NCBI GenBank assembly: GCA_022711395.1
Contig: JAKLFA010000001.1
Coordinates: 387,277 to 451,276 of the forward strand
From: Candidatus Omnitrophota bacterium
GTDB lineage: Bacteria; Omnitrophota; Gorgyraeia; Zapsychrales; JANLHA01
DNA: 64,000 nucleotides
Direction of reading: 5' to 3'
A model generated the notes under the pieces. The model had not been told where the DNA came from, ran no database searches, and worked only from the letters and a program-made list of their open reading frames with translations. The translations under genes were made by a program, and so were the position numbers. Position 1 is the first letter of the stretch. Each line of letters begins with the position of its first letter. Of the stretch, positions 17,766 through 33,547 are shown piece by piece.

Positions 17766-18029
17766 ATGGATAAAAAGAGATCAAAGACATTTCCGAAGAT
17801 CCAAAAAGATCTTAAATGCTTCCTGGAAAGTGAAGAAGGAAAGATCGTTGAAAAGGACGCCGTGAAGCTCGGCACTGCGATTGTGGCGGCGGGCGTCTTT
17901 TTGGGCAGCTTAGTGGCTCCTGTGGATGATGCCCATAGCGTGACCACGGGCCATTGTCAGCATGCCTCGCACGGAAGCCACGGAAGCCACGGAAGCCACG
18001 GAAGTCATTCGACCGGGGGCTGGTGTTAG
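17766..18029 (+). CDS. HxsA-like precursor peptide with C-terminal His-Xaa-Ser repeats.
   Basis: 87 aa. Charged N-terminal leader, hydrophobic segment LGTAIVAAGVFLGSLVAPV, then CQHASHGSHGSHGSHGSHSTGGWC. Preceded by a GAAGGAGA Shine-Dalgarno (SD) sequence and followed by four radical SAM genes in the same island. Confidence 0.7.
   Translation: MDKKRSKTFPKIQKDLKCFLESEEGKIVEKDAVKLGTAIVAAGVFLGSLVAPVDDAHSVTTGHCQHASHGSHGSHGSHGSHSTGGWC
17966..18005 (+). repeat. Perfect 9-bp tandem repeat (CACGGAAGC)x4 encoding the His-Gly-Ser repeats.
   Basis: Direct reading: cacggaagc cacggaagc cacggaagc cacggaagc cacggaagtcat. Confidence 0.9.
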
Positions 18030-18199: not shown

Positions 18200-19627
18200 A
18201 TGCAGGGCCTGGCATCATCTGAGCAAGAGATGAGATTGAGAAGATTGTTCGCGGATCTTTTGATCAAAAAAGGATACGAAAAAGAGGTCTATCTGCTTGA
18301 CCTGAGCGCCTTTTTTAAGAGCCATGGAGTTTACACCTTATCCGAAGTGCAGGACCTTTGGAGAGGGCATTTGTCCAAAGCGGAAGTCTGCCGGCATTAT
18401 TTTTCTCTTTATGTGCACATCCCGTTCTGCCGGAAGCGATGTTCATTTTGCCGGCATTATGAATGGACCTGCAGCAGTGAGAACCAGCTGCGGCTTTATC
18501 TTGATTCGCTGGTCTTTGAGATCCGGGCGTTCAAAGAGATATTTTCTGGTGTTATGTTCAAAAGCCTTTATGTCGGCGGCGGGACGGCGAACATTTTAAG
18601 CCCGGAGCAGATCGATCGTCTTTTGTCAGAGATCGACCTAAATTTTAGATTTGATGATCACGCGGAGAAGACATTTGAATGCAATCCCAATGAGTCCTCC
18701 ATGGAAAAACTATCTGTTTTCGCGGGCCATGGGATCAACCGTGTTTCGTTCGGGGTGCAGAGCTATTCTCAGGATGTTCTGGGATGCACTCATCGCGCTC
18801 ATCAGAGTGAGGAGATGGTCGCCTCAGCCATCAGGGATGCGCAGAGATTCCCGGCTTTTCATAAGATCAATGCGGATCTGTTGATCGGGCTGCATAATGA
18901 CAGCCCGAAAACGGTGTGTGACAGTTTTCTTAAACTTGCGCAACTTGGCACAGGATCGATCTCGCTTTATGCTCTTAAGCCGCCGCTGCATTATATTAAA
19001 AAATATTATCGAGGACGGCAGGACCTCTATGATGAGGCCCTATCGGAAAAATTAAGGGACTTTGAACGCCTGGTCGCGCCGATCACAGAAGAATTTGATT
19101 ATGTTTTTACGCCCCTAAAGGAAATTAGGGCGAACTTTGACGCATGGATGTTCACCCTGCGAAAGAATTATCATACCGGGCGCATCTATAAATATGTGAC
19201 CGCGGAATTCCCGATCGATTGCCTGGGCCTTGGAACAGGCGCGGTCTCGACGATCACGGATCACGCTTTTTACAAGAACCAGAGCTTTACGCCGTCCGCG
19301 CAGGGCGGGACCTTTGAGCAAAACGGCAGATACCGAGGCTGTTTGAAATATGGGCCTAAAGAGCAAAGAGTGTTGTTCATTCTGGGGGAGATCGCCACAT
19401 GGAACCGTATTTCGAAAACCCAATACCGGGGGATGTTCGGATCAGATATTACGGCTGACTTTACGGTTGAACTCGAGCGGCTTTCAGCATTGGGCGTTGT
19501 GAGCCTGACTGACGCGTTCGTTATTTTTGAGAGGAAGAAGCCGGAGGAGAGGTTCTTTTACGCGCTGTTTTTTTTGGACCATAAGATGATCTTTGATGCA
19601 ATGGAAAAACTAAAAACAAAAGTCTGA
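18200..19627 (+). CDS. HemN-like (class C) radical SAM enzyme.
   Basis: YVHIPFCRKRCSFCRHY (HemN-type CxxxCxxC) and LYVGGGT. It immediately follows the Hxs-type precursor peptide. Confidence 0.75.
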   Translation: MQGLASSEQEMRLRRLFADLLIKKGYEKEVYLLDLSAFFKSHGVYTLSEVQDLWRGHLSKAEVCRHYFSLYVHIPFCRKRCSFCRHYEWTCSSENQLRLYLDSLVFEIRAFKEIFSGVMFKSLYVGGGTANILSPEQIDRLLSEIDLNFRFDDHAEKTFECNPNESSMEKLSVFAGHGINRVSFGVQSYSQDVLGCTHRAHQSEEMVASAIRDAQRFPAFHKINADLLIGLHNDSPKTVCDSFLKLAQLGTGSISLYALKPPLHYIKKYYRGRQDLYDEALSEKLRDFERLVAPITEEFDYVFTPLKEIRANFDAWMFTLRKNYHTGRIYKYVTAEFPIDCLGLGTGAVSTITDHAFYKNQSFTPSAQGGTFEQNGRYRGCLKYGPKEQRVLFILGEIATWNRISKTQYRGMFGSDITADFTVELERLSALGVVSLTDAFVIFERKKPEERFFYALFFLDHKMIFDAMEKLKTKV

Positions 19628-19648: not shown

Positions 19649-21481
19649 ATGCCAGTCGCAAAATCCAAAAATAATTCTGCGGGCGCGGTCCGAAAAAAGG
19701 ACGCCCCCTATGTCATTTCAGCAGCCTATCATTGTAATAACGCGTGCCTGTTCTGTTATAACAAGGGCGGGCAGAATATCCGTCCTCAATTGAGCTTTGA
19801 TGAGATGCTCCGGCAGATCGAACAAGCCGCCGGGGCAGGGTATAAAAAGGTCGCTTTTTTCGGGGGGGAATGCACGGTCGAGCCGTATTTTTTTGATCTG
19901 CTCAAGGTCGCCAAAAAATTCGGTTTAAAGGCCCGGCTGGAAACCAACGGCCAGATGTTCGCAGAGACGGACTTTTTGAGGCGATTGAAAGAATTCGACC
20001 TGGATTCATGCCAGTTTTCTTTTCATACTTATGAGGAATCGGTGCATGATGAGTTGACGCGCAATCCGGGCGGATTCCGCAAGACCGTCAAGGGCATCCT
20101 GAATTTTAAAAAAGCCTTTCCCCATGTCAGGCTGGACAGTTACACCGTGATCACCCGCCGGAACGTGCGTCAATTGTATAAGACGGCCTGTTATCTTCAC
20201 AAATTCTTTGGCGTGCAGGAGGCGTTCTTTTCGTTTTTGATCTCTCCGGCGGAGAGGGAAAATTTTAAGCGCCTCGCCGTTTCGTTCAATGACGCCCGTC
20301 CCTGTTTGCAAAGGGCGCTGGACTATCTTTCTGGCCATAACCTTCCGTTCCGGATCGATAAATGCCCGAAATGCGTATTTCCCCAGTATCACGAGCTTCA
20401 TCATTATGAAAAAGGGGTCTTTGATCCGGATGATTACTGCAAGCATGCGGTCTGTGAAAGCTGTCCGCTTTCTGCGGATTGCCCGGGATTCAGTAAACAA
20501 TACGTGGCTGTTTTCGGATTTGATGGCCTGCGGCTGGGAGGATTTCAGCAGGATGAGCTGAAATATTTTTTTGCCGGGCTGAATATGGGAGCGTTAAAGA
20601 GCGTGAAACGATCGCTGACCTTTGATGAGTTCAACAATCCAGTGCTGAACTTTGAGAGGGAAGAGGGGGGCTGGGAGCAGATCTGCAAAGATGTCAATAT
20701 CCCATTGTGCGCGATTAAAAGCACAGGAAAGCTGATCGACATCTGGAATGATTTTCAATTTACGCCGGAGTTTGTTGAAAAAGCGCTTCGTCAAAACAGA
20801 ACAGTGTCCTGTGAAGATTTATCCAGGGCTGTGTGTCAGCAGTTGAGGAAAGATTTTAAGGCGAAGGTCAGTGAGGAAAATGTCCTTTTGACCGCCGGTT
20901 CCCGTCCGGCGTTGTATGCCGCGTTCCTTGCGCACATAAGGCCGGGCGACCTGGCCGTTCTTAAAGAGGGCATGTGGGACGGCTATCGCTATGGTCTTGA
21001 TCAGACCGGGGGCCGGGTCGTTGAGGTTTCTTCTTACGATGAACTGGAGAATGTCGGTTCGGATGAGCTGCGGCTGGTGATCGTCAACAACCCTCAGCTG
21101 CCTTCCGTGCGCCAGCGGTTGTCTGAAAAGGAAATCAGGAAGCTCATCTCTTTTTGCAATCAGCGGGGAACGTTTTTGCTCGTCGATGAGATCGGTAACC
21201 GCCTTTCTCCTGACCCGTTTTCGGTCCTTTCGCATTGTGATATGTCTAAAGACCGCGTGATCGTGACCCAGTCATTTTCTAAAAATTATTTTATTCCTCA
21301 ATATAAGGCCGGTTATGCGGTGGCGCATCCTGAGATCATTTCAAAGATCAAACGGATCATTGATTTCAGCGGATATCCGATCGCGCCCCGGTCCGTTCAG
21401 GCAGCGCATGCGGTTCTCTGTTCACCTCAGCAGTGGCAGAAAGAAAAGGCCGCCATGATCTATAAAAAAGGGACGTGGTAA
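19649..21481 (+). CDS. Radical SAM domain fused to a C-terminal PLP-dependent class I/II (HisC-like) aminotransferase-fold domain.
   Basis: N-terminal CNNACLFC (CxxxCxxC) with GGE. The C-terminal ~250 aa align to the aminotransferase fold, including SFSKNYFIPQYKAGYAVA. Compare hisC in this window: [18 protein letters not shown], the pyridoxal-Lys motif. Confidence 0.6.
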   Translation: MPVAKSKNNSAGAVRKKDAPYVISAAYHCNNACLFCYNKGGQNIRPQLSFDEMLRQIEQAAGAGYKKVAFFGGECTVEPYFFDLLKVAKKFGLKARLETNGQMFAETDFLRRLKEFDLDSCQFSFHTYEESVHDELTRNPGGFRKTVKGILNFKKAFPHVRLDSYTVITRRNVRQLYKTACYLHKFFGVQEAFFSFLISPAERENFKRLAVSFNDARPCLQRALDYLSGHNLPFRIDKCPKCVFPQYHELHHYEKGVFDPDDYCKHAVCESCPLSADCPGFSKQYVAVFGFDGLRLGGFQQDELKYFFAGLNMGALKSVKRSLTFDEFNNPVLNFEREEGGWEQICKDVNIPLCAIKSTGKLIDIWNDFQFTPEFVEKALRQNRTVSCEDLSRAVCQQLRKDFKAKVSEENVLLTAGSRPALYAAFLAHIRPGDLAVLKEGMWDGYRYGLDQTGGRVVEVSSYDELENVGSDELRLVIVNNPQLPSVRQRLSEKEIRKLISFCNQRGTFLLVDEIGNRLSPDPFSVLSHCDMSKDRVIVTQSFSKNYFIPQYKAGYAVAHPEIISKIKRIIDFSGYPIAPRSVQAAHAVLCSPQQWQKEKAAMIYKKGTW

Positions 21482-21498: not shown

Positions 21499-23097
21499 TT
21501 AAGGCAGGATCTTGTAGAATGTGTAACGGGCCTTGCCTTGATCGTATGAACGGTATTCTTCCATCCTGTAACTGCTTTTCATGATCCCGCACAATTCCCC
21601 TTCAGCGGCCGACATTTGGCAGATCAGATCATCGAAAAAGAGAACGCAGTCCGTTGAACGCAAGATGTTTCCTCGCTCCGCATGGTTTTCCAGGAAAAAG
21701 CTGAGATCGACCACGTTGAGTTCAGTGGTGGACCGCAGGATCGTTGGGTGGTTGGCAATGATCAGGCAGCCGGAAGGGATGTCTTTTTCCGCCAGCTCCG
21801 GGACGCGGGTCTCCAGCCGGTGTCCGTCACCGCCGAACATCTTTGACACCGGGTCAACGTAAGGGAGGCAGGAGCTTATTAAAAGGCCCACGATGAGAAT
21901 GCGCATGGCCGTTTGCGCGGAAGGCCGTTTGATTTTTTGCGTAAAAAAGACCAAGCCCTCAGAGAGCGCCGATGCGGCAAAAATGCCCAGGACAGGGTAA
22001 AAACTGAGAACGATCCGCCCCTTTCCCAGCAGGGCGTCTTCGCCGCCCAGGGTCTTTATCCAAGAGGAGAAATAGGCGGCCCACCAAAAGACGAGCCACA
22101 GGCACAGGAATGAAAATATTTTTCGGTCCTTGATGAGGAGCAGGATAGCCCCGATAAGCGAAAGAAAAGAGAAAAGAAGCGGCTGCATGGATCCGTTAAA
22201 AATGGAGATGCCGTAATGCCGTGTGTTGTAAAACAAATTTTGGAGGCTCCAGTTGGCTCCGCGGATGCCGGTATATTCTGCGACCTCGCTGAAGTTCAGG
22301 GAGGAATAATAATGAAGGACTTGCGCGAGATTGGGCAGGCTTAAGGCAATAAACAGCAGCCAGGCGAAGACGTATGATACAGGAGGCGTTACGTTGTTTT
22401 TTTCTCCCAGGATCCAGTTTCCCGCCGGGAACAAAAGAAAAAGGATATAATTTTCCGGCCTGAATTGTGCCGCAAGGCATATCGCAGACAGGGAGAGCCA
22501 AAAAAAGGCGCGGGTCTTTTTTTGAAAATAAAGAGAACATGCCGTTACGGCCAGGCAGACCATGAAGAGTGAAACGACATTGGTTTCGGCTGTGGCCGAC
22601 CAGCGGATATGGATCGGCTGAAGGCCTATCAGCAGAGCGGCAAAGATGGCTGTTGTTTTTTTATTCGTGATGGCAAAGGTCAGAAAAAACACTGCAGCGG
22701 CTGAAAGAGCCCCGATAACGATCATCCCGTAAAGCGCGACCCAGTTGTTGGTTCCGAACACGAAAAAAAATGAGCTTAAGAGAAAAGGCCAGCCGATCGA
22801 TTTGGGATAATCCCCCGAGTGGCCTGTTTGCAGGATGTGTTTGGCTGCCTCCATATACCATGGTTCATCCAAATACATCACATGCTGGATCGGCGGGACC
22901 AAAAGGCGCAAGGCGAGAGAAAAGAGAACAATGACGGCAAGCCATCCATAAGCAGCGCCGCCGGCCTTTGACGCGAACTCCGAGAGATTTTTACGGTTCT
23001 GAGCGAGCAGAAATAAAAAGATGATCCATGAGAACAGGGCGCATGCCGGGATGGCGGCGGAAAGAGTTTCGGCTATGGAGCGTAAGAACATTGTCAT
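21499..23097 (-). CDS. Polytopic membrane protein, GT-C-fold glycosyltransferase-like (ArnT/PMT family-like).
   Basis: At least 12 TM helices and a first-loop acidic motif …HVMYLDEPWYMEAAKHI… resembling the GT-C DE/DD motif. Function is inferred from architecture. Confidence 0.45.
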   Translation of the reverse strand: MTMFLRSIAETLSAAIPACALFSWIIFLFLLAQNRKNLSEFASKAGGAAYGWLAVIVLFSLALRLLVPPIQHVMYLDEPWYMEAAKHILQTGHSGDYPKSIGWPFLLSSFFFVFGTNNWVALYGMIVIGALSAAAVFFLTFAITNKKTTAIFAALLIGLQPIHIRWSATAETNVVSLFMVCLAVTACSLYFQKKTRAFFWLSLSAICLAAQFRPENYILFLLFPAGNWILGEKNNVTPPVSYVFAWLLFIALSLPNLAQVLHYYSSLNFSEVAEYTGIRGANWSLQNLFYNTRHYGISIFNGSMQPLLFSFLSLIGAILLLIKDRKIFSFLCLWLVFWWAAYFSSWIKTLGGEDALLGKGRIVLSFYPVLGIFAASALSEGLVFFTQKIKRPSAQTAMRILIVGLLISSCLPYVDPVSKMFGGDGHRLETRVPELAEKDIPSGCLIIANHPTILRSTTELNVVDLSFFLENHAERGNILRSTDCVLFFDDLICQMSAAEGELCGIMKSSYRMEEYRSYDQGKARYTFYKILP

Positions 23098-23121: not shown

Positions 23122-24060
23122 TTAACGGAAGTAGATCCCTAATGAATCGCCTTCCCAGGTCAGGTAAGAAACGGCTCCGCCGCATTGCTTTAAATATTGC
23201 TTAGAGCTGTCCCACCACGTCAAAAGATGCTCGTCTTTAAAATTAAAGACTGGAAGTTCAGGGGCTGGCAGCGCCGTTTCCAAACGGGCCCAGATCTTGG
23301 TTGAAGAGACCGAGGCCTCCGGTGTGATGCGGTGCAGATATCCGATGTGGCGCAAAGGCATTTGTTTGACCCAGAGTAAAAATGGGGTGAGGAACGCAGA
23401 TCCGTCCCTTGAGCATTGATGGATGATCTCGTCATAGAACGCATCATGAAACGGGGCGGATGAATACGGGTAGATCTTTAAAGAACAATTGCCGCTCGGT
23501 CCGAAGTCTATTCCGATGGCGTCCAGCGTTATTCCTGAAATAAGCGTCTTTAACGCGGCCCGATTGATCCGCAGATCTTCAGCGATCGAAAGGAGAGAGT
23601 CGTCCGCTTTATGACAGGTGTTGATCAGGCTGATGTATGTTTTTAGCAAAAGGCGGCCGTCCTTATTAAGAGTGAAGCCAAACTGCATCGGCCAGTTGGT
23701 TTTTGAAATGGATTTGAAGGCTCCTTCAAGGATATGGACCTGTTGTTGCGTTAATGTTGGTTCCTGCTTTGAAAGAATATGCAGGGCGCGGTAGATCTCA
23801 AAAAAACGCTCTTTGCAGAGGGCCTGTTGGAATTCAAAAGGTCGGTCCGCGTCAAAGAAGCGCAAGTGGAGGAGCCGAAGGTCATCCGTTTTTGAGCTCA
23901 GCGAGAATTCAAAGATGCCCGATTGGGAAGAAAGCGCAGTGCCGGGTTTTTCCAGCAGCTTAAACAGGGAGCTGAAATCCAGCGGCGGGATGTTCCAGTG
24001 TTTTGTCAGGTCTGTGATGAAACGTTTTGCTTGGGAGCTGTCCATGGCTGATAAGGTCAA
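23122..24060 (-). CDS. Hypothetical protein (312 aa) in the rSAM island.
   Basis: Long ORF with coding-like composition, translationally coupled to the upstream rSAM (4-nt overlap). I recognise no family. Confidence 0.45.
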   Translation of the reverse strand: MTLSAMDSSQAKRFITDLTKHWNIPPLDFSSLFKLLEKPGTALSSQSGIFEFSLSSKTDDLRLLHLRFFDADRPFEFQQALCKERFFEIYRALHILSKQEPTLTQQQVHILEGAFKSISKTNWPMQFGFTLNKDGRLLLKTYISLINTCHKADDSLLSIAEDLRINRAALKTLISGITLDAIGIDFGPSGNCSLKIYPYSSAPFHDAFYDEIIHQCSRDGSAFLTPFLLWVKQMPLRHIGYLHRITPEASVSSTKIWARLETALPAPELPVFNFKDEHLLTWWDSSKQYLKQCGGAVSYLTWEGDSLGIYFR

Positions 24061-25208
24061 TATTGATAAAGTTGGATGAACCGCGGATCATATTTTAACG
24101 CGGACTTGATCTTTAAGAAAGTTCGGACATAGATTTTGGAGATACAGCAGAAAGCCGTGTAAAGACGCCGGCTTTGGACGGCGCGTTCGGTCTCGAATGT
24201 CTTTGTGTAGAGGAGATGTCCGATCGGGCAGAAACAATATTTATAGATGGAGCACTCTGAGCACTCGAGCCCGGATTCGGCGGTGAATTCATCGCGCAAT
24301 TTTTTCAGTAAACGCAGGCGTTTATCGTCATCGATCCCTTCGCAGGCGTTTCCGATGGCGTAGTCTTTTCGCATGGCGGGGTCAAGAGAGAAGACTTTGT
24401 CGCAGACATAGAATTGCTGATCGTTCCCGAAAGAGAGCTTTCCGCAGCGTTCCATTTTATCGACCTCGATCCCGTTGACGAGCGTGTCAAGAAATGCGTT
24501 CTTAAAGACCGGGGCGTTACGTTGAAACAGCTCGATATAATAGCGTTCAAAATCTTCAAAGGATCTTTCCATGGACCGCAGGTCGTTCGTGTTCCAGTGG
24601 GCGTATTGGTCAGGATAGAATTCGATCGAATAAAAATCCTTGGCGCTTAAAAAGCGGATATTGTCCAGAAGACGGCTCACGTTTTGTGGGGTGAACACCA
24701 TCGCGGCGGAAAGTCTGAAGGTGGTGCCGAGGCGCTCCATGTTCCGCATGATCGCATCAAAGCTGGACCGGTCAGGGTTGTTGCGGAATGGGCGGTTCTC
24801 ATCATGGGTCAGTTTGTCGCCATCGATGCTGATCTTGATGATGGTGTCTTCTTTGGCGATCGAGCGGAGGATGTCCTTATCCAGGAGGGTGCCGTTGCTG
24901 ATGATCGCCACATCTAAGCGGGTCTTGTTTTCCTGGGCTTTTTTTCGGGCGTAGTCGCAGAGCGCTCTTAAAAGTCCGATCTCAAGGGTCGGCTCGCTGC
25001 CGTTAAAACTTAAGGTCTTGTGTTTTCCGGGATAGCTGAAGAGCAGGTCGATCGATCGTTTCAAGGATTCTTCATCATCCGGAGAATGCTTGAAATCCGT
25101 CTTTTTTAGGAAGCAGTATTTACAGTCGAGGTTGCATTGGCCGGTGAAAAAGAAATTCAGCGTGGACGGCGAGTCGTGGGGGATTATGGGGTTATTCGGA
25201 TCTCTCAT
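24057..25208 (-). CDS. Radical SAM/SPASM-domain protein (anaerobic sulfatase-maturase-like); HxsB/HxsC candidate.
   Basis: Start revised to ATG 25208 (MRDPNNPII…). The ORF-track N-terminal 74 aa are low-complexity and would overlap the upstream gene by 238 nt. CNLDCKYC lies near the N-terminus. The C-terminus has Cys clusters (CEGIDDDKRL…CSECSIYKYCFCPIGH…). Confidence 0.7.
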   Translation of the reverse strand: MRDPNNPIIPHDSPSTLNFFFTGQCNLDCKYCFLKKTDFKHSPDDEESLKRSIDLLFSYPGKHKTLSFNGSEPTLEIGLLRALCDYARKKAQENKTRLDVAIISNGTLLDKDILRSIAKEDTIIKISIDGDKLTHDENRPFRNNPDRSSFDAIMRNMERLGTTFRLSAAMVFTPQNVSRLLDNIRFLSAKDFYSIEFYPDQYAHWNTNDLRSMERSFEDFERYYIELFQRNAPVFKNAFLDTLVNGIEVDKMERCGKLSFGNDQQFYVCDKVFSLDPAMRKDYAIGNACEGIDDDKRLRLLKKLRDEFTAESGLECSECSIYKYCFCPIGHLLYTKTFETERAVQSRRLYTAFCCISKIYVRTFLKIKSALKYDPRFIQLYQY

Positions 25209-26691
25209 AGAGATGAGCGGCCATCCGCCGGAACCAGTCGTCGAAGACGGCCCGTATTTTTTTGTTCTTGAGCTTTTTGAACAGATGATCAAAGATCGCC
25301 ATTTTGATCTTGCAGCTGTCTGTCGCCGGGATCTGGGGGAAGAGATTGCCGTATTCCACGAAATTGACCAGCGGGCAGACGCCGCAGTATGGTTTGTAAG
25401 CACAGTCTGAGCAGCTGGCCTGGTTATCAAGGCAAGATGAGATGCATAGCGTCTTCGTGACTTCGTTGTCGATCAGGTCGCTAAACCGGCTGGTATTGAC
25501 ATGTCCGATCTGAAAATTCCCGTAACCCATACGGCTGGACATCCGCCCTTCATCGCAGGAATAGATCGCGCCGTCGTAGTTGAAGGCCATTTGGCCGATG
25601 CTGGCGCCGCAAGGATTGCGCATATCATAAAAACAGGGGTCATCGTTCTTGAGGATCTTGGACAAAGCAAAAAAAGCGTTACGTTCCAGTATGAACGTGC
25701 CCTTCGAATTCAACTCCAGGATATAATCCAGCGCGCGCTTGTAAAAGGTGATGAACTTTTCGGATTTATAGCTGATGAGTTTGTGTGTTTTGCGCTCCAG
25801 GCCGAACGGATTGAGCGGGCGCAGGAAAATGTTATTGAATCCCAGGGAAATATATTCATCAATGATCTCTTTGGCGTAGGGAAGCGAGAATTTTGTGATG
25901 GTCGTGATGGCGTTGAGCTGGTCAATGAATTGAGAAGGGGAACCTTTACGCTTTTGCCGGATGGCCGCATTGATCTTTTTGATCTGCTTGACAACGATGG
26001 CATGGCTTTTACCGGAACCGAGAAATGGCCGGTTTTTGTCGTGCACTTCAGCTGGTCCATCCAGCGAGGTGACGATGCTCACGTTATGATCGAGCAGGAA
26101 CTTGAGCTTTTCATCATCCATCAGGATGAGGTTGGAGATCACCGTGAGCTTAAGCCGTTTTTTATGGATCTCGGCCATGTTTTGAGAATATCCGACCATA
26201 TATTGCAGGACCGGCCAATTCAATAACGGCTCTCCTCCCTGGAATTCGATATGGACATTTTGTGAAGGCCCTTGAAAAATAAGGTCCAGCGCCTTTTTGG
26301 CGGTCGCCTCATCCATGTCATAACCATGCGTGTCGCAGGTTTCCGGAGTGGATTGGCAGTAAAGGCAGCGTTGGTTGCAACGCAAGGTCAGGATGATCAG
26401 GAAAAGCGAGGGGCCCCGGTAAGCGGAGTTGTGAAGGCGGAGGTACTTTGAGGCCTGCTCAGCCAGTTTGTTTCGGTCGGTCCGGTCGATGTCAATGAAC
26501 TGTTTGTCCCGTAGCTCTTGATAGAGCGGTTCATCTTTTGTAATGGAATTTTCAAGCAAACGCTTGAAATCCACCTGGTCCAGGCAGGCCCAATCGCCGC
26601 AGTCATTGGTAACGATGTAATCGTTGTTGACCCTGCGGAAACGGATATTGCCCAGGTGAGAACAGGTGGCTGCTTTTTTAGGGTTGCGCAT
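25192..26691 (-). CDS. Radical SAM/SPASM-domain protein with a ~110-aa N-terminal extension; HxsB/HxsC candidate.
   Basis: Start revised to ATG 26691 (MRNPKK…); the upstream ORF-track residues are low-complexity. CNQRCLYC lies ~110 aa in from the start. The C-terminus has SPASM-like Cys clusters (…CISSCLDNQASCSDCAYKPYCGVCP…). Confidence 0.65.
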   Translation of the reverse strand: MRNPKKAATCSHLGNIRFRRVNNDYIVTNDCGDWACLDQVDFKRLLENSITKDEPLYQELRDKQFIDIDRTDRNKLAEQASKYLRLHNSAYRGPSLFLIILTLRCNQRCLYCQSTPETCDTHGYDMDEATAKKALDLIFQGPSQNVHIEFQGGEPLLNWPVLQYMVGYSQNMAEIHKKRLKLTVISNLILMDDEKLKFLLDHNVSIVTSLDGPAEVHDKNRPFLGSGKSHAIVVKQIKKINAAIRQKRKGSPSQFIDQLNAITTITKFSLPYAKEIIDEYISLGFNNIFLRPLNPFGLERKTHKLISYKSEKFITFYKRALDYILELNSKGTFILERNAFFALSKILKNDDPCFYDMRNPCGASIGQMAFNYDGAIYSCDEGRMSSRMGYGNFQIGHVNTSRFSDLIDNEVTKTLCISSCLDNQASCSDCAYKPYCGVCPLVNFVEYGNLFPQIPATDSCKIKMAIFDHLFKKLKNKKIRAVFDDWFRRMAAHLYERSE

Positions 26692-26896
26692 GGGCGATCT
26701 CGAGATAGAGGACATAGTTTTTGAACTCACTGATAAAGATTTCTGCGTCGTCCAATTGTCCGTCGTCATCAACGGAGACATGGAAATACTGCCCCTTTGA
26801 GCGGATCTCAAACTTGCCGAAATCCTTGAATTGTTCAAAGGCGGCTTCAATGTGCGCTTGTGAGTATAAATTTTTATGAAAAGGGATTGTCAGCAT
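26678..26896 (-). CDS. Small hypothetical protein (72 aa) immediately upstream of the SPASM rSAM pair; possible accessory protein or second substrate.
   Basis: Tight spacing: 2 nt after the upstream gene and a 14-nt overlap with the downstream rSAM. I have no family assignment. Confidence 0.4.
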   Translation of the reverse strand: MLTIPFHKNLYSQAHIEAAFEQFKDFGKFEIRSKGQYFHVSVDDDGQLDDAEIFISEFKNYVLYLEIAHAQP

Positions 26897-26897
26897 T

Positions 26898-27401
26898 TTA
26901 CTGCAAAGGTCTTTTTATGTTCAACGGATCTTCTTCGTAGGTTCCCGCAGAAAAATCTTCCTGCTCCAGTTCTTTCTTGAGAGCTTCGATCTCCTGTTCG
27001 ATCTTTTTGATGTCATCCTCATCACTGTTGGCGCGTGAAGGTTCTTGCGGCCCTTTGGATGAGGAGGGAAGGGCGGCGTTAATGGCCCCTCCAACGATAT
27101 ATTCAATGATCGTTTTATTTTTTTGGGCGATCTCTTTGCGGACGGATGCATTGAGAAGTTCATTCAAGAATTCATTGCGGAGCGCTTCGAGCTGCTTTTT
27201 GGTTGATCGTGTCTTTGTTTTCAACAAGACGGTGAACTCATCTTTTTTCGGGGCGTCGATATAAACATAGACTTTGTCTACGATGATGTAGCAAGCCTTT
27301 AAAAGGACCTCTTTGGGATAGATTTTAGGATGAACGGAGAAGACAATCTCTGAATCCTTCGTGTTAATCCGTGTTTTGCTGGATTTTTCGAAATTATTCA
27401 T
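26898..27401 (-). CDS. Hypothetical protein (167 aa) with an acidic coiled-coil C-terminus; HxsD-like candidate.
   Basis: First gene of the minus-strand rSAM operon. Contains …FLNELLNASVRKE…, loosely reminiscent of the LLNDYxLRE motif I recall for HxsD. This similarity is weak. Confidence 0.4.
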   Translation of the reverse strand: MNNFEKSSKTRINTKDSEIVFSVHPKIYPKEVLLKACYIIVDKVYVYIDAPKKDEFTVLLKTKTRSTKKQLEALRNEFLNELLNASVRKEIAQKNKTIIEYIVGGAINAALPSSSKGPQEPSRANSDEDDIKKIEQEIEALKKELEQEDFSAGTYEEDPLNIKRPLQ

Positions 27402-27538
27402 TTTTCGCTCGTATATTGTGGGATTGATAGAGAACTAAAAGAATCTAGGTAAAGTATAACAGGAATGACTGTTTTCGCAAATATTTTATTCCGTTTCTTG
27501 CGCCGGGCAGCGTCTAGCCCCGGCCTCGTTGCTGCCTT

Positions 27539-29381: not shown

Positions 29382-30329
29382 TTAAGGAGAAGGGGTGATA
29401 TTGGTTCTCGGTGGAGCGTTGCCCTTCTGCTGTTTGACGAACTCCCTTGCCTGATAGACCAGTTCCCGGCATTTGTTGAAGTCGACCTCATGAAAATCCC
29501 TGATCTTGTAACAGTAGGACACGGGGTCATCCGGGCCATTGGGGTCAAGGGTCCCAACGACAGCCAAGGGGATCGCGTATGCCTTATAGCACTGATTTTC
29601 AGTGTAATGGCGGATGATCTTTTTTTCAACACTGCTTGGATCGACCAAAGTTTCGCACTGGAGGCGCAGCATGTCATCCCGGATGCTGATCTTGCTGCAC
29701 TCATTGATATCTTTTGTTTTGAACGCCCGGTAAAGCGTGAAGCCTTCCACGCAGTATTTTCGCCCGTCAGACCCTTCTTCAAAATTGTCCAGGCAGGCAT
29801 TGATCCCGGCCGGTGTCGTGACGGCCAGGCAGATCGAATAGGAAACCCGTTTATCTTCCTCGGTGCTGTCATCGAAGATTTGGTTTTTCAGGAACGAATC
29901 GCAGAGAGAAGGGTCCTTGTAAAAGATCACGTGGGCCATGCGGACGCTTTTTGACCTTAAGTTCAGTTTTTGGGCGTCCTCAAGGAATTTTTGGAGGTCT
30001 TTTTCCGTCTTAAGGTGGAACATGATCGATTGCAGACAAAGACGCTTAATATCATCACTCCATGTTTTGTTGTCACAGGTGCCGGTCTTGGCTTGATGGA
30101 GGATCACTTGATATTCCTGGTCCTGGTAGGAGTTGCCGAATTTGGGCAGTTGGCCGCGCGTGGCCAAAGATGTGCACTCATCAATATAGCTTTGGGATTT
30201 TTTCTGAACGTCAGAGAACTTCTGCCCTTTGAAATTATCCAGGGTCATGTCCAGGACGGTCTGAGCATGGATCGTTTGGGAAACAAGGGTAAGAAGCGCG
30301 CTGATCAAAAAGATTCGGAGGGTCTTCAT
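29382..30329 (-). CDS. Secreted Cys-containing protein (signal peptide MKTLRIFLISALLTLVSQTIHAQ), function unknown.
   Basis: Clear Sec signal peptide and about 12 Cys. It is divergent from the tandem rSAM operon. Confidence 0.5.
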   Translation of the reverse strand: MKTLRIFLISALLTLVSQTIHAQTVLDMTLDNFKGQKFSDVQKKSQSYIDECTSLATRGQLPKFGNSYQDQEYQVILHQAKTGTCDNKTWSDDIKRLCLQSIMFHLKTEKDLQKFLEDAQKLNLRSKSVRMAHVIFYKDPSLCDSFLKNQIFDDSTEEDKRVSYSICLAVTTPAGINACLDNFEEGSDGRKYCVEGFTLYRAFKTKDINECSKISIRDDMLRLQCETLVDPSSVEKKIIRHYTENQCYKAYAIPLAVVGTLDPNGPDDPVSYCYKIRDFHEVDFNKCRELVYQAREFVKQQKGNAPPRTNITPSP

Positions 30330-30576: not shown

Positions 30577-31473
30577 ATGAAAAAAGCGGATATCAAAACC
30601 GGGTTTTTATGCAATTCCAACTGCCGTTTCTGCGTTCAGGGTGACCTCAAAAAGGCCCTTGGCAATAAATCGGCTGCTGAGCTTAAAGAGATCATCAAGG
30701 AGGCCAGCCGCGACTGCGGGATCCTGGTCTTTACCGGAGGGGAAGTGTGCGTGCGGGAGGATATTCTTGAGCTTGTCGCGTATGCCCGGCAATTCCCTTT
30801 TCACACAATACAGATCCAATCCAACGGCCGTGTGTTTATGGACGAGCGTTTTTGCGCGGACGTGATCTCCGCCGGGGCCAATGAGTTCGCCCTGGCGCTT
30901 CACGGCCATACGCCGGAACTTCATGATTATCTGACCCAAAGCGCCGGCTTTAAACAGACGATCCGCGGCATTCGGAATTTAAAAAAACTCGGCCAGCGTG
31001 TTCTTGTGAACACGGTGGTGACCAAACCAAATTACCGCCACCTGCCGGATATTACAAAATTGCTGATCAGCCTGGATGTTGACCAGATGCAGCTGGCCTT
31101 TGTGCACGCGCTGGGTTCGGCCGCATTGAATTTTGAAAGCATGGTCCCGCGACTGACGCTGGTGATGCCCTATGTCATCCGAAGTATCGTGATCGCCCGT
31201 CATTTTGACAGGCAGATCGTCACGGAGGCTATTCCGTATTGTTTTCTTAAAGGTTATGAAGGGCATGTTTCCGAGCAGGTCATGCCTATCATGAAGATCT
31301 TTGAACATGATCATGTTGTGGCCAACTTCACGGAATCCAGGTTGACCGAGGGCAAGCTGAAAGGCCCGGATTGTCCGCAATGCGCTTATTACGAGGCATG
31401 TGAAGGATCGTGGAAAGAATATCCCCAAGCCTTCGGATGGGATGAATTCGTGCCGGTGAGCAGGGAACGATGA
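30577..31473 (+). CDS. Radical SAM protein (small, ~300 aa), first of three tandem paralogs.
   Basis: CNSNCRFC at residues 12–19, GGE motif (FTGGEV), C-terminal CPQCAYYEACEG. Confidence 0.75.
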   Translation: MKKADIKTGFLCNSNCRFCVQGDLKKALGNKSAAELKEIIKEASRDCGILVFTGGEVCVREDILELVAYARQFPFHTIQIQSNGRVFMDERFCADVISAGANEFALALHGHTPELHDYLTQSAGFKQTIRGIRNLKKLGQRVLVNTVVTKPNYRHLPDITKLLISLDVDQMQLAFVHALGSAALNFESMVPRLTLVMPYVIRSIVIARHFDRQIVTEAIPYCFLKGYEGHVSEQVMPIMKIFEHDHVVANFTESRLTEGKLKGPDCPQCAYYEACEGSWKEYPQAFGWDEFVPVSRER

Positions 31474-32606
31474 GCGCAAATAAGGTCCAAATTAAAAATA
31501 AGGCGGCTGAGGAGAAACGTCATTGGGTGCGTTTGACGAATACCTGCAACCAGCGGTGCGTGTTCTGCCACGATCGTCGGAATCAGCAGGGAGGGGTCGT
31601 GCCGTTTGAGGAGATTGTCCGCGATCTTCAAAAAGGGCGCAGGCGGGGTTGCCGGCGGGTGGTGCTGTCAGGAGGTGAACCGACGCTGCATCCTGAATTG
31701 GCCAGGGTCATTTCCGAGGCCAGGCGCCTGGGGTATTCACATGTGCAGATGGTGAGCAATGGGCGGATGCTCTTTTATAAGGATTTTGTAAAGGCCTTGA
31801 AGACGGCTGGTTTGGATGAAGTGACCCTTTCATTGCATAGTCATTTGGAGGGGCCGTTCGAGCAGATCACGCGAGCAAAGGGCAGTTTCCGTCAGGCGAT
31901 GAAGGGGCTGCTTGCCGTTCTTGAGAACGATTTTATTGTGAGCGTGGATATTGTCATTAATAAGCTGAATTACAAGAGCCTCGCACGGACCATGAAATTC
32001 TTTATCGGGTTAGGGGTCTATGAGTTCGATCTTTTGCATTTGATCCCGTTCGGGGATGCCTGGCAGAACAGGAGGGACGTTTATTACCCTATCCAAAAAG
32101 CGAAAAAATATCTGGATGAGGCTTTCGAACTTTCCAGGAAAGAACAGGTCTATCTTTGGACCAACCGTCTGCCGGCGATGTACCTCGAGGGTTATGAAGA
32201 CTTGATCCAGAGTCCGCGTAAACTTTTTGATGAAGTGGCGGGGATGGAGCAGGAACTTAAGAACGTTTTGGAGACGGGGCGCCCGATGATCTGTTCGGGA
32301 GAACGATGCGGATATTGTTTTATGGAGGCCTTTTGTCAGGATCTGATGCGATTACGAAAGGATAAGTTTCTTTCTGCCAGACAGCCGCCGCCATGTTTAA
32401 AAAAGAAACAGCAGTTGAAGCCGGCCGTTTACCGCTTTCGAAAGGGCATGAGCCTTTACCGGTTCCTGGATTTTTTTATTGAACATCGGTATTATGTGAA
32501 AAGCCTGCGGTGCGGGCAGTGTCGCTTCAACCGTCAGTGCGACGGAGCGCACATCGAGGAAATACGGACAAAGGGTTTTAAGGCCCTGGTCCCGTTTAAA
32601 AAATAA
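31470..32606 (+). CDS. Radical SAM protein with a SPASM/twitch-like C-terminus, second tandem paralog.
   Basis: CNQRCVFC; LSGGEPTL; C-terminal CSGERCGYCFMEAFC and CGQCRFNRQCDG. Its start overlaps the previous stop (ATGA). Confidence 0.75.
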   Translation: MSANKVQIKNKAAEEKRHWVRLTNTCNQRCVFCHDRRNQQGGVVPFEEIVRDLQKGRRRGCRRVVLSGGEPTLHPELARVISEARRLGYSHVQMVSNGRMLFYKDFVKALKTAGLDEVTLSLHSHLEGPFEQITRAKGSFRQAMKGLLAVLENDFIVSVDIVINKLNYKSLARTMKFFIGLGVYEFDLLHLIPFGDAWQNRRDVYYPIQKAKKYLDEAFELSRKEQVYLWTNRLPAMYLEGYEDLIQSPRKLFDEVAGMEQELKNVLETGRPMICSGERCGYCFMEAFCQDLMRLRKDKFLSARQPPPCLKKKQQLKPAVYRFRKGMSLYRFLDFFIEHRYYVKSLRCGQCRFNRQCDGAHIEEIRTKGFKALVPFKK

Positions 32607-32611
32607 GAGCA

Positions 32612-33547
32612 ATGGCGAGCCTAGGCTATATACAAGTCACCCGCGAGTGCAATCAGAATTGTATGATCTGTTCTAATCCTCCGACGGGTTATTATTTGCC
32701 GCTTGACCAGGCCAAGAAGGAAGCGGACTGGCTGGTCGAAAAGCGGTGCGCAGGTGTTATTTTAAGCGGCGGGGAGCCTACGTTGTATCCGCAACTTCCG
32801 GAATTGATCCGATATTGCAAAGCCCGGGGGCTGTTTCCACGGATCATCACCAACGGGCAGAAGACCTGTGATGAACAGTATCTTCGCCTTTTAAAAGAAT
32901 CCGGTCTGCAGCATTTGCATCTGTCGATCTATTCTTGCCGGCCCGCGGTTCAGGCGAAGCTCACCGGCAACGCGCAGGCCTTTGCCAACATTGAAAAAAG
33001 CCTTATGAATATCGTGCGGCTTGGCGGAATGACCGTGGATGTCAATATCGTGATCAATAAATATAATGCCGGTCATTTGTTGGAGACGGTTTCGTGGATG
33101 ATTGAACATTATGGTTTTGTTCAACATTGTGTTTTCAACAATCTGGATCCGTGCATGAACCGCGTGGCGGAGCATCCGGATGTGGTCCCGCGGCTCAATG
33201 ATTTTGAGCTGGAGCTTCACCGGGCGTTGCAGTTCTTGGCTGCTCATGGAAAAACATTCCGTGTTGAGCGTGTCCCGCTGTGCTATTTGACGGATTTCGA
33301 GCACATTTCCACGGAAACGCGCAAGATCGTCCTGAATGAACAGAGAGCGATCTATTTTTTGGATGACCGGGGAGAGGTGGAGCAGGAAGATTGGTATTAT
33401 AAAAAAGGGGCTGCTTGTAGGCCCTGCAGGCTGAATAAGATCTGCGCCGGGCTGTATGCCCTGGGAAAAGGATATGATGAAGGGGAGTTGTATCCGGTTT
33501 TTATTGATCCTGCCGGGATCATTGAGAAGATCAAAGGAATTCCATGA
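32612..33547 (+). CDS. Radical SAM protein, third tandem paralog.
   Basis: CNQNCMIC; LSGGEPTL; C-terminal CRPCRLNKICAG. Confidence 0.75.
   Translation: MASLGYIQVTRECNQNCMICSNPPTGYYLPLDQAKKEADWLVEKRCAGVILSGGEPTLYPQLPELIRYCKARGLFPRIITNGQKTCDEQYLRLLKESGLQHLHLSIYSCRPAVQAKLTGNAQAFANIEKSLMNIVRLGGMTVDVNIVINKYNAGHLLETVSWMIEHYGFVQHCVFNNLDPCMNRVAEHPDVVPRLNDFELELHRALQFLAAHGKTFRVERVPLCYLTDFEHISTETRKIVLNEQRAIYFLDDRGEVEQEDWYYKKGAACRPCRLNKICAGLYALGKGYDEGELYPVFIDPAGIIEKIKGIP

What the first reader, a model, noticed from the sequence alone, without database searches (positions are those of the whole stretch)
24057..27401. Convergent operon of two SPASM rSAMs, one with a ~110-aa N-terminal extension, plus small partner proteins (HxsB/HxsC/HxsD candidates)
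The two adjacent SPASM-type rSAMs fit the HxsB/HxsC pairing. After start-codon correction they overlap by 17 nt. The larger one has its CxxxCxxC about 110 residues in, like AlbA-type maturases, whose N-terminus is a RiPP recognition element (RRE). Two small proteins (72 and 167 aa) and a 312-aa unknown protein are co-operonic. The 167-aa protein contains LLNASVRKE, loosely like the LLNDYxLRE motif I recall for HxsD. This operon is convergent with the precursor operon, which I would not expect for a reported Hxs locus.
Basis: partly seen in the sequence, partly recalled or inferred. Interest (0 to 1): 0.75.

Follow-up and report, generated by a model that had tools for sequence, protein, structure and literature searches.

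The report
Variant His-Xaa-Ser peptide maturase operon
This operon from an uncultured Omnitrophota bacterium is the enzyme half of a non-standard His-Xaa-Ser (HXS) peptide-maturation system, in which the usual HxsC enzyme is replaced by an unnamed radical-SAM family that tracks with a Trp-Cys end on the target peptide.

Summary
Five tightly packed minus-strand genes sit at 23122-27401. Their overlaps of 17 nt and 14 nt, the CxxxCxxC motif at residue 105 and the LLNASVRKE motif are all present.

By curated models the 499-aa protein is HxsB, the 167-aa protein is HxsD and the 72-aa protein is "HxsD-like". The 383-aa enzyme ("rSAM2") is not HxsC. It belongs to a discrete, unnamed SPASM family of about 60 known members in Omnitrophota, Patescibacteria and Elusimicrobia.

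In relatives the usual order is HxsD, HxsD-like, HxsB, rSAM2, precursor, all on one strand. Only this lineage has moved the precursor (17766-18029) to a convergent operon.

rSAM2 co-occurs with precursors ending in G[GS]WC: 18 of 19 loci with it, against 0 of 13 precursors in 12 loci without it. This holds across several HxsB lineages, so I predict a Cys-dependent crosslink at the C-terminus.

There is no sulfatase or anSME signal. Verdict: a new variant of a known kind. The chemistry and the biological role remain unproven.

The parts
26898..27401 (-). hxsD, 167 aa. The HxsD domain covers residues 26-108 and is followed by a charged, helix-prone tail.
   Evidence: NCBIfam TIGR03976 scores 56.7 bits against a cut-off of 50. 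A precomputed PF27806 HxsD hit is recorded for the same protein. Homologs lie upstream of hxsB in nearly all related loci.
26678..26896 (-). hxsD-like small protein, 72 aa
   Evidence: NCBIfam NF038315 scores 63.4 bits against a cut-off of 41. My HMM finds a homolog upstream of hxsB (between hxsD and hxsB wherever hxsD is also on the contig) in 37 related locus records, some of them near-identical. BLASTP finds no similarity to HxsD itself.
25192..26691 (-). hxsB, 499 aa: an N-terminal RRE-like domain (about residues 17-86), a radical-SAM core (C105/C109/C112) and a SPASM domain
   Evidence: TIGR03978 scores 494.8 bits against a cut-off of 370. AlphaFold2 gives pLDDT 89 with three strands then three helices at residues 17-86. 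The best Foldseek PDB match is CteB 5wgg, E 4.8e-22, 488 aligned columns.
24057..25208 (-). rSAM2, 383 aa: a SPASM radical-SAM enzyme of an unnamed family with no N-terminal recognition domain. It sits where HxsC sits in canonical loci.
   Evidence: Best NCBIfam match is PapB at 155.4 bits, below the cut-off of 340, and HxsC is not among the best 25 families. About 62 full-length homologs at 30-55% identity are followed by a drop from 184 to 79 bits. Ten Cys are conserved. It is syntenic with hxsB and a G[GS]WC-ended precursor in 18 loci.
23122..24045 (-). 307-aa protein predicted to have an ABBA (prenyltransferase-barrel) fold. An alternative TTG start at 24060 gives 312 aa.
21499..23097 (-). 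532-aa membrane protein resembling a PMT_2 / Agl23-type glycosyltransferase. It is the last gene on this strand, and whether it belongs to the system is uncertain.
   Evidence: Pfam PMT_2 scores 30.7 bits against a cut-off of 26.1. It starts 24 nt downstream of the 307-aa gene. No homolog was found in related loci of other lineages.
17766..18029 (+). 87-aa precursor: a conserved leader (PKIQKDLKCFLESEEGK), a hydrophobic stretch, six consecutive His-Xaa-Ser repeats (HASHGSHGSHGSHGSHST) and a C-terminal GGWC
   Evidence: NCBIfam HxsA3 scores 50.5 bits (cut-off 65) and HxsA4 scores 35.3 bits (cut-off 55). It is the only HxS-repeat ORF in the window. Homologous precursors lie directly after rSAM2 in other loci.
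18200..19627 (+). HemN-like radical-SAM enzyme, 475 aa, in the precursor operon
   Evidence: It matches hemN-type models at 123-141 bits, all below their cut-offs. Homologs recur in related loci.
19649..21481 (+). HxsC-like radical-SAM domain fused to a class I/II aminotransferase, 610 aa
   Evidence: TIGR03977 HxsC scores 90.9 bits against a cut-off of 267.9. Pfam finds Radical_SAM plus Aminotran_1_2.
30577..34521 (+). Three HxsC-like radical-SAM genes (298, 378 and 311 aa) followed by a Peptidase_A24 homolog (325 aa). This module recurs next to the Hxs core.
   Evidence: HxsC4 and HxsC models score 87-151 bits, below their cut-offs. Peptidase_A24 scores 33.5 bits against a cut-off of 26.5. 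The rSAMs are 50-61% identical to those in Patescibacteria loci, in the same order.
29382..30329 (-). 315-aa protein whose N-terminus reads like a signal peptide. It is weakly related to the roughly 300-aa proteins that follow the precursor in other loci.
   Evidence: phmmer links it to L009_304 (E 7e-6) and L092_291 (E 3e-5). tblastn finds a hit in L016.
27453..27480 (-). Promoter-like site upstream of hxsD (TTGCGA, 16 nt, TATACT, with an extended TG)
   Evidence: This is a consensus scan only and is weak evidence.

Best explanation
The minus-strand operon encodes the maturase core of a non-canonical His-Xaa-Ser (HXS)-type system. This subtype is found in Omnitrophota, Patescibacteria (CPR) and Elusimicrobia.

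Shown by tool results:
- The components are HxsD, an HxsD-like small protein, HxsB, a second SPASM radical-SAM enzyme of an unnamed family (rSAM2) and an ABBA-fold protein.
- rSAM2 occupies the position that HxsC holds in canonical hxsD-hxsB-hxsC-hxsA loci.
- The window's only HxS-repeat ORF is the 87-aa peptide at 17766-18029. In this lineage alone it has been moved to a convergent operon.

Inferred mechanism:
1. HxsB binds the conserved leader (P-x-I-K-K-x-L-K-x-F-L-x-S-E-E-G-K) through its N-terminal RRE-like domain and modifies the HxS-repeat core.
2. rSAM2 has no recognition domain of its own. It is recruited through HxsB, or through HxsD or HxsD-like, by analogy with the HxsC-HxsD complex in E. 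coli.
3. rSAM2 installs a Cys-dependent crosslink at the C-terminal Trp-Cys. A thioether is the most likely product, as made by its nearest characterised relatives CteB, PapB and QhpD.
4. The ABBA-fold protein either prenylates the peptide or acts as a peptide- or prenyl-binding partner of the rSAMs.
5. The long-leader, hydrophobic-stretch, Ala-rich layout suggests that the modified HxS peptide is then exported or anchored in the membrane.

The biological role is not established. Defence at the cell envelope, by analogy with HXS, is possible.
For: - Family assignments pass curated cut-offs for HxsB, HxsD and HxsD-like.
- rSAM2 forms a discrete family with a sharp score drop after about 62 members.
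- The order HxsD, HxsD-like, HxsB, rSAM2, precursor is conserved across phyla.
- The precursor family shares its leader, hydrophobic stretch and HxS repeats.
- rSAM2 presence tracks with a G[GS]WC terminus: 18 of 19 loci with it, against 0 of 13 precursors from 12 informative loci without it. Fisher p = 4e-8.
- The association recurs in at least four separate HxsB lineages. Locus L118 is nested among rSAM2-positive loci but lacks both rSAM2 and the terminal Cys; its precursor ends IGGW.
- The HxsB model has RRE-like three-strand, three-helix topology, and its whole length aligns to CteB.
- The closest solved structure to both rSAMs is the thioether-forming CteB.
- Family members are fused to HemN-like, SPASM-type and HxsC-like rSAM domains.
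- An HxsC-HxsD complex and rSAM-dependent maturation are reported for the canonical system (PMC13128918).
Against: - Nothing here is experimental.
- The window's precursor scores below every curated HxsA model and lies in a different, convergent operon.
- The RRE assignment rests on a predicted structure. No PqqD-type sequence match appears even at E = 10.
- The co-variation sample is small and not corrected for phylogeny, and the tree is a rough neighbour-joining tree without support values.
- There are exceptions. L098 has rSAM2 but its precursor ends FSCY. L031 has GGWC but only 25-28% identical SPASM rSAMs nearby. L131 has GGWCNPRC with a 25% relative.
- The ABBA-fold protein is present in only some rSAM2 loci, its model comes from a 6-sequence alignment, and PatF shows that this fold can be catalytically inactive.
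- HxsD-like shows no pairwise similarity to HxsD.
Confidence: 0.75

Rival explanations
1. This is a canonical HxsB/HxsC pair. The two adjacent rSAMs are the standard HXS maturases and the system works like the E. coli HXS antiphage system.
For: - HxsB and HxsD pass their models.
- rSAM2 sits where hxsC sits in canonical loci.
Against: - rSAM2 is not HxsC. TIGR03977 is not among its 25 best families, so it scores below 37.7 bits against a cut-off of 267.9.
- It shares 21% identity over 193 aa with a canonical HxsC, E 2e-4. The window's HxsC-like rS298 gives E 6e-14 against the same protein.
- The precursor is 87 aa, has no Pfam domain and so no detected peptidoglycan-binding domain, and fails TIGR03979 (22.6 bits against 121.65).
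- The gene order differs, and extra components are present.
Confidence: 0.05
2. rSAM2 and the ABBA-fold protein form an independent ranthipeptide- or SCIFF-like RiPP module with its own, unrecognised precursor, and merely lie next to hxsDB.
For: - The best family match is PapB and the best structure match is CteB.
- rSAM2 has no recognition domain and could use a different partner.
Against: - The window has no other small Cys-rich or HxS ORF.
- The 17-nt overlap with hxsB implies translational coupling.
- rSAM2 is flanked by hxsB and the HxS precursor in 18 loci from several phyla.
- Its presence tracks a feature of that precursor.
Confidence: 0.07
3. The two rSAMs are anaerobic sulfatase-maturing enzymes, or similar protein-activating enzymes, acting on a folded protein.
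For: Both proteins are related to anSME at the fold level. Foldseek E values for the HxsB model against anSME chains are about 1e-17 to 1e-18, and the anSME models hit at 78-95 bits.
Against: - The anSME scores are far below the cut-off of 349.
- HxsB passes its own equivalog model.
- The 64-kb window has no sulfatase signature.
Confidence: 0.02
4. The operon is as described, but the ABBA-fold protein is a non-catalytic scaffold or peptide-binding partner for radical-SAM enzymes, not a prenyltransferase.
For: - The domain is fused to three different rSAM types.
- It has no sequence-level membership in any prenyltransferase family.
Against: - The invariant Lys, Arg and Tyr residues lie on strands at i, i+2 spacing, so they should face the barrel lumen. 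This resembles the diphosphate-binding pattern of active ABBA enzymes (the comparison is from memory).
- One distant family member has a sub-threshold Trp_DMAT hit.
Confidence: 0.35

Closest known systems
HXS (His-Xaa-Ser) system hxsD-hxsB-hxsC-hxsA. It is defined by TIGRFAMs TIGR03976-TIGR03979 and was shown to be an antiphage system in E. coli (PMC13128918).
   Same: - It has HxsB and HxsD orthologs that pass the curated models.
- It has a His-Xaa-Ser repeat substrate.
- The operon is led by hxsD, with a second rSAM directly after hxsB.
- The substrate has an N-terminal region that looks processed or exported.
   Different: - The second rSAM belongs to a different, SPASM-type family, not HxsC.
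- There is an extra HxsD-like protein and an ABBA-fold protein.
- The substrate is an 87-aa peptide with a RiPP-like leader, a hydrophobic stretch and a GGWC end. Canonical HxsA is about 190-214 aa and carries a peptidoglycan-binding domain.
- The precursor lies on the opposite strand.
- Three to four HxsC-like rSAMs, a HemN-like rSAM and an A24 peptidase are associated with it.
- The hosts are Omnitrophota and CPR bacteria, whereas the paper places 99.7% of HXS systems in Pseudomonadota.
- The flanking genes that could be identified (SMC, a diguanylate cyclase, DnaG primase) are not defence genes.
NCBIfam HxsA3 (NF038309), HxsA4 (NF038313), HxsD_rel (NF038315) and HxsC4 (NF038332) variant models
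   Same: - The 72-aa protein passes HxsD_rel.
- The precursor aligns end to end with the HxsA3 profile.
- A related precursor (L009) passes HxsA4 at 74.7 bits against a cut-off of 55.
   Different: - The window's precursor is below both cut-offs (50.5 against 65, and 35.3 against 55).
- Its HxsC-like rSAMs are far below the HxsC4 cut-off (150.9 against 500).
- No curated model covers rSAM2 or the ABBA-fold protein.
- I found no paper describing these variants.
RRE-containing SPASM RiPP maturases such as CteB (SCIFF, 5wgg), SuiB, TigE and AlbA
   Same: - HxsB has the same three-part architecture: an N-terminal three-strand, three-helix domain, the rSAM core and a SPASM domain with 7 auxiliary Cys.
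- CteB is the best PDB match by sequence and by fold.
   Different: - Identity to CteB is only about 18%.
- The N-terminal domain has no sequence match to PqqD or other RRE models.
- The substrate is His/Ser-rich rather than Cys-rich.
- The reaction is unknown.
PapB-type ranthipeptide maturases and QhpD
   Same: - rSAM2's best family match is PapB, covering profile positions 3-313 of 330.
- It is a short SPASM enzyme without an N-terminal domain.
- It is associated with a Cys in its presumed substrate.
   Different: - Its score of 155 bits is far below the cut-off of 340.
- The cluster motif is CX2CX5CXC.
- The substrate has one or two Cys, not a Cys-rich repeat.
ABBA (prenyltransferase-barrel) aromatic and RiPP prenyltransferases: MpnD, CymD, DMATS, PatF/PagF, the histidine prenyltransferase FunA and the arginine prenyltransferase DciF
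   Same: - Its size of about 300 aa resembles the cyanobactin enzymes.
   Different: - Identity is 7-15% and it belongs to no Pfam family.
- It occurs in a radical-SAM operon and is sometimes fused to rSAM domains.
- Its activity is untested.

Membership tests
HXS system (TIGR03976-TIGR03979; PMC13128918) | HxsB radical-SAM maturase (TIGR03978 equivalog) | tested here: met
   494.8 bits against a cut-off of 370, with profile positions 4-465 covered.
HXS system (TIGR03976-TIGR03979; PMC13128918) | HxsD small protein (TIGR03976) | tested here: met
   56.7 bits against a cut-off of 50. A precomputed PF27806 HxsD hit is recorded.
HXS system (TIGR03976-TIGR03979; PMC13128918) | HxsC radical-SAM maturase adjacent to HxsB (TIGR03977) | tested here: not met
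   The adjacent rSAM2 does not list HxsC among its 25 best families, so it scores below 37.7 bits against a cut-off of 267.9. BLASTP against a canonical HxsC gives 21% over 193 aa, E 2e-4. The HxsC-like rSAMs elsewhere in the window score 87-100 bits, also below the cut-off.
HXS system (TIGR03976-TIGR03979; PMC13128918) | HxsA effector with His-Xaa-Ser repeats and a peptidoglycan-binding domain (TIGR03979) | tested here: not met
   Repeats are present (HASHGSHGSHGSHGSHST). However, TIGR03979 scores 22.6 bits against 121.65, HxsA3 scores 50.5 against 65 and HxsA4 scores 35.3 against 55. The protein is 87 aa and has no Pfam domain.
HXS system (TIGR03976-TIGR03979; PMC13128918) | Gene order hxsD-hxsB-hxsC-hxsA on one strand | tested here: not met
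   The order here is D, D-like, B, rSAM2, ABBA-fold protein on the minus strand, with the precursor on the plus strand about 6 kb away. The canonical order was confirmed in an Aeromonas plasmid and in the paper.
HXS system (TIGR03976-TIGR03979; PMC13128918) | Blocks phage DNA entry; +8 Da modification of an HxS repeat | not testable with these tools
   This needs phage challenge assays and mass spectrometry. The 2023 PADLOC library returned no HXS-specific match, only generic viperin-type radical-SAM hits.
RRE-dependent SPASM RiPP maturases (CteB/AlbA type) | CxxxCxxC radical-SAM motif plus a 7-Cys SPASM domain | tested here: met
   HxsB has C105/C109/C112 plus C361, C379, C427, C430, C436, C439 and C460. 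rSAM2 has C25/C29/C32 plus C255, C269, C316, C319, C325, C327 and C354. These Cys are conserved in family alignments.
RRE-dependent SPASM RiPP maturases (CteB/AlbA type) | N-terminal RiPP recognition element (PqqD-like three strands plus three helices) | tested here: inconclusive
   The HxsB model has strands at 17-21, 24-28 and 34-38 and helices at 39-46, 55-62 and 73-86, with pLDDT 82-94. Its full length aligns to CteB over 488 columns. No PqqD sequence hit appears at E = 10. Leader binding is untested. rSAM2 has no such domain.
PapB ranthipeptide maturases (NF047865) | Score above the curated cut-off | tested here: not met
   rSAM2 scores 155.4 bits against a cut-off of 340.
Anaerobic sulfatase-maturing enzymes (TIGR03942) | Score above the cut-off and a sulfatase substrate nearby | tested here: not met
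   The scores are 78.2 and 95.3 bits against a cut-off of 349.45. The six-frame translation of the window has no sulfatase signature.
ABBA aromatic/RiPP prenyltransferases | Prenyltransferase-barrel fold (five helix-helix-strand-strand repeats) | tested here: met
   [not shown]
ABBA aromatic/RiPP prenyltransferases | Sequence membership in a prenyltransferase family, and prenyl transfer activity | tested here: not met
   There is no Pfam, NCBIfam or PDB sequence hit. A distant relative, P0213, reaches only 20 bits against a cut-off of 25 for Trp_DMAT. Activity cannot be tested here.

The most novel reading that the evidence does not exclude
Ultra-small bacteria (Omnitrophota and CPR) carry an HXS-derived pathway of 5 to 8 radical-SAM enzymes that turns a short, leader-bearing His-Ser repeat peptide into a heavily modified envelope or secreted product. 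On this reading:
- rSAM2 is a new SPASM enzyme class that crosslinks the C-terminal Trp-Cys.
- The ABBA-barrel protein is a new kind of radical-SAM partner, either a peptide prenyltransferase or a substrate-presenting domain, as its fusions to three rSAM types suggest.
- The product is a membrane-anchored counterpart of the periplasmic HxsA effector that blocks phage DNA entry.
Probability: 0.3. Interest if true: 0.8.

Novelty: new variant of a known kind. Interest (0 to 1): 0.6.

Why it matters
- The chemistry of HXS maturation is unsolved. The E. coli study reports a +8 Da change and could not reconstitute the reaction, partly because HxsA is insoluble.
- This variant offers a short (about 80-aa) peptide substrate with a clear leader. 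It also has a clean genetic contrast between loci with and without rSAM2 and the terminal Cys, including one natural loss pair.
- It shows that HxsB and HxsD systems are widespread outside Pseudomonadota and are modular. The HxsC position can be taken by an unrelated SPASM enzyme.
- The ABBA-fold domain, both in the operon and fused to three rSAM types, points to a partnership that has not been studied.
- A gene cluster this large, kept in very small genomes, suggests an important envelope function. That function may be phage defence.

Tried and rejected
- AnSME/sulfatase reading: rejected. Model scores are far below the cut-offs and no sulfatase signature is present.
- HxsC identity for the 383-aa enzyme: rejected.
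- PADLOC defence models: only generic viperin-type rSAM core hits, and no HXS-specific match in the 2023 library.
- Sequence-level RRE detection: Pfam at E = 10 on HxsB residues 1-97 found nothing.
- Sequence search of the 307-aa protein against the PDB: only chance antibody matches.
- HxsD against HxsD-like by BLASTP: no alignment.
- Prepilin-type cleavage idea: I considered a Lys-x-Gly site just before the hydrophobic stretch, cut by the A24 peptidase. The Gly is replaced by Thr in the Moraniibacteriota precursors, so I keep this only as a weak idea. An Ala-x-Ala-like site after the hydrophobic stretch is equally plausible.
- PMT_2-like glycosyltransferase as part of the system: no homolog in related loci of other lineages, so this is left uncertain.
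- Literature searches for HxsA3, HxsA4 or an Hxs system in CPR bacteria found nothing specific.
- Promoter and terminator scans gave only weak consensus matches.

Full report
**Observation.** The minus strand between 23122 and 27401 carries five tightly packed genes.
- They encode proteins of 167, 72, 499, 383 and 307 aa (312 aa from an upstream TTG).
- Public gene calls on the same metagenomic contig give the same products.
- The 499-aa stop and the 383-aa ATG overlap by 17 nt. The 72-aa stop and the 499-aa ATG overlap by 14 nt. The first two genes are 1 nt apart.
- The 499-aa protein has CxxxCxxC at C105/C109/C112, and the 383-aa protein has it at C25/C29/C32.
- Each has seven further conserved Cys in a SPASM-like arrangement.
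- LLNASVRKE starts at residue 82 of the 167-aa protein.

The description is therefore correct.

**Source.** The sequence comes from a Candidatus Omnitrophota metagenome-assembled genome. Identical proteins occur on a 547-kb JGI contig and in several other samples.

**Family assignment** (all unless stated).

| Product | Best curated model | Bits | Cut-off | Result |
|---|---|---|---|---|
| 499 aa | HxsB, TIGR03978 | 494.8 | 370 | passes |
| 167 aa | HxsD, TIGR03976 | 56.7 | 50 | passes |
| 72 aa | HxsD-like, NF038315 | 63.4 | 41 | passes |
| 383 aa (rSAM2) | PapB, NF047865 | 155 | 340 | fails |

- The HxsB profile covers the N-terminal extension, so the extension is a family trait rather than a peculiarity of this protein.
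- HxsC (TIGR03977) is not among the 25 best families for rSAM2, so it scores below 37.7 bits against a cut-off of 267.9.
- I fetched a canonical hxsD-hxsB-hxsC-hxsA locus from an Aeromonas plasmid. Its HxsC aligns to rSAM2 only over the generic rSAM core: 21% identity over 193 aa, E 2e-4.
- The same canonical HxsC aligns better to an HxsC-like rSAM elsewhere in the window, E 6e-14.
- anSME models score 78-95 bits against a cut-off of 349, and the window has no sulfatase signature.

**Wider context in the window.**
- The only HxS-repeat ORF is the 87-aa peptide at 17766-18029. It aligns end to end with the HxsA3 profile but scores below the cut-off, 50.5 bits against 65.
- It heads a plus-strand operon with a HemN-like rSAM and an HxsC-like rSAM fused to an aminotransferase.
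- That operon ends 17 nt from the end of the minus-strand gene set.
- Further on, at 30577-34521, lie three more HxsC-like rSAMs and a Peptidase_A24 homolog.

**Comparative evidence.**
- rSAM2 has about 62 full-length homologs at 30-55% identity. Scores then drop sharply from 184 to 79 bits.
- Genome and metagenome scans and contig look-ups show these homologs in Omnitrophota, Moraniibacteriota, Parcubacteria, Saccharibacteria and Elusimicrobia.
- In nearly all of these loci the order is HxsD, HxsD-like, HxsB, rSAM2, precursor on one strand. In three loci the precursor lies between HxsB and rSAM2, and in one short contig (L098) the two are convergent, as here.
- The three-rSAM-plus-A24 module recurs nearby at 50-61% identity. 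HemN-like rSAMs and homologs of the 307-aa protein recur in some loci.
- Among loci long enough to show the whole arrangement, only the window's lineage has the precursor in a convergent operon.
- Canonical HXS loci are 99.6% D-B-C-A and 99.7% from Pseudomonadota, according to the 2026 paper.

**Precursors.** All share three features:
- a leader, P-x-I-K-K-x-L-K-x-F-L-x-S-E-E-G-K;
- a hydrophobic stretch, often followed by an Ala-rich site;
- His-Xaa-Ser repeats.

**A new correlation between rSAM2 and the precursor C-terminus.**
- In loci with rSAM2 (at least 29% identity over at least 300 aa), 18 of 19 complete precursors end in G[GS]WC. The exception, L098, ends FSCY.
- In 12 informative loci without rSAM2, none of 13 precursors ends in Trp-Cys. 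They end in GQW, GSW, GSY, SNY and similar.
- Fisher's exact test gives p = 4e-8. This is not corrected for shared ancestry.
- A rough neighbour-joining tree of HxsB places the rSAM2/GGWC loci in at least four groups.
- In that tree L118 is nested among rSAM2-positive loci but lacks both rSAM2 and the terminal Cys; its precursor ends IGGW.
- L031, L130 and L131 are ambiguous.
- The nearest characterised relatives of rSAM2 (CteB, PapB, QhpD) make Cys-derived thioethers. I therefore infer that rSAM2 acts on the C-terminal Cys.

**Structures.**
- The HxsB model has pLDDT 89 and pTM 0.90. It has strands at 17-21, 24-28 and 34-38, then helices at 39-46, 55-62 and 73-86, ahead of the rSAM core. This is the topology of a RiPP recognition element.
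- Its best PDB match is CteB, E 4.8e-22, with 488 aligned columns. The next matches are anSME, TigE, ChlB and SuiB.
- No PqqD sequence hit supports this assignment, so the RRE is a fold-level inference.
- The 307-aa protein has no sequence match anywhere.
- Its model (pLDDT 77, built from 6 sequences) has five helix-helix-strand-strand repeats.
- Its invariant Lys, Arg and Tyr residues sit on the strands at i, i+2 spacing.
- The family is rare: 78 representatives among 1.84 billion proteins.
- Four members are fusions of this domain to HemN-like, SPASM-type or HxsC-like rSAM domains. One distant member has a sub-threshold Trp_DMAT hit.
- The domain is therefore functionally tied to rSAMs. Whether it acts as a prenyltransferase or as a binding partner is open.

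**Mechanism.**
- Shown: the identity of the parts, the conserved gene order, the co-variation and the predicted folds.
- Inferred:
  1. HxsB captures the leader through its N-terminal domain.
  2. HxsD and HxsD-like serve the RRE-less enzymes, by analogy with the E. coli HxsC-HxsD complex.
  3. rSAM2 makes a Cys-dependent crosslink at Trp-Cys.
  4. The ABBA-fold protein tailors or presents the peptide.
  5. The product is exported or anchored in the membrane.
- The biological role is unknown. The flanking genes that could be identified are housekeeping or signalling genes rather than defence genes: SMC, a diguanylate cyclase and DnaG primase.

**Novelty.**
- HXS is a known system, and NCBI already names HxsB in CPR genomes.
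- Curated variant models exist for HxsA3, HxsA4, HxsD_rel and HxsC4.
- I found no paper on this variant, and no curated model for rSAM2 or the ABBA-fold protein.
- I class it as a new variant of a known kind.

Noticed in passing
window 19649-21481 (+): A 610-aa fusion of an HxsC-like radical-SAM domain (TIGR03977, 90.9 bits, below the cut-off) with a class I/II aminotransferase domain, directly downstream of the precursor and the HemN-like rSAM. Related loci show only weak partial hits, so the fusion looks rare.
   Followed up: partly
window 30577-34521 (+): Three consecutive HxsC-like radical-SAM genes (298, 378 and 311 aa) plus a Peptidase_A24 (prepilin peptidase family) homolog. The rSAMs are 50-61% identical and in the same order in Patescibacteria loci, which is unusually conserved between phyla.
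   Followed up: partly
proteins P0225, P0250, P0253, P0260 (relatives of window 23122-24045): The ABBA-like domain is fused N-terminally to three different radical-SAM types: HemN-like, SPASM-type and HxsC-like. These are the same three types found around this locus.
   Followed up: partly
L096 3649-5166, L105 1886-3268, L123 1494-3026: Some relatives carry the same leader and HxS repeats fused to a roughly 330-aa C-terminal domain that begins CPF..W.G..F..NNILP. These are large HxsA-like proteins rather than short peptides.
   Followed up: no
L093 1-9455: In one genome, hxsD, hxsD-like and hxsB lie directly after a type IV pilus operon (PilO, T2SSE, T2SSF, three N_methyl pilins and an A24 peptidase). 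Together with the A24 homolog in the window, this hints at a link to pilin-type processing.
   Followed up: no
window 29382-30329 (-): A 315-aa protein whose N-terminus reads like a signal peptide. It is weakly related to the roughly 300-aa proteins that follow the precursor in L007, L009, L091 and L092, so it may belong to the system.
   Followed up: partly
window 28269-28592 (-) and 27539-28303 (-): A small protein with a PEP-utilizers mobile domain (28.8 bits against a cut-off of 23.1) and a 254-aa protein with hydrophobic N-terminal stretches lie just upstream of hxsD on the same strand. Their relation to the system is unknown.
   Followed up: no
window 21499-23097 (-): A PMT_2 / Agl23-like membrane glycosyltransferase is the last gene of the minus-strand set. 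I saw it only in this Omnitrophota lineage. An enzyme of this kind could in principle glycosylate the Ser-rich exported peptide.
   Followed up: no
window 15136-17712 (+): An 858-aa protein with no Pfam or NCBIfam match lies directly upstream of the precursor gene.
   Followed up: no
L026 13577-14537; L104 2749-8248: Some loci encode two precursors with very long HxS arrays (130-255 aa). Their C-termini differ within a locus, for example GGWC and a Cys-rich CPCCAGVGAEI end in L026.
   Followed up: no
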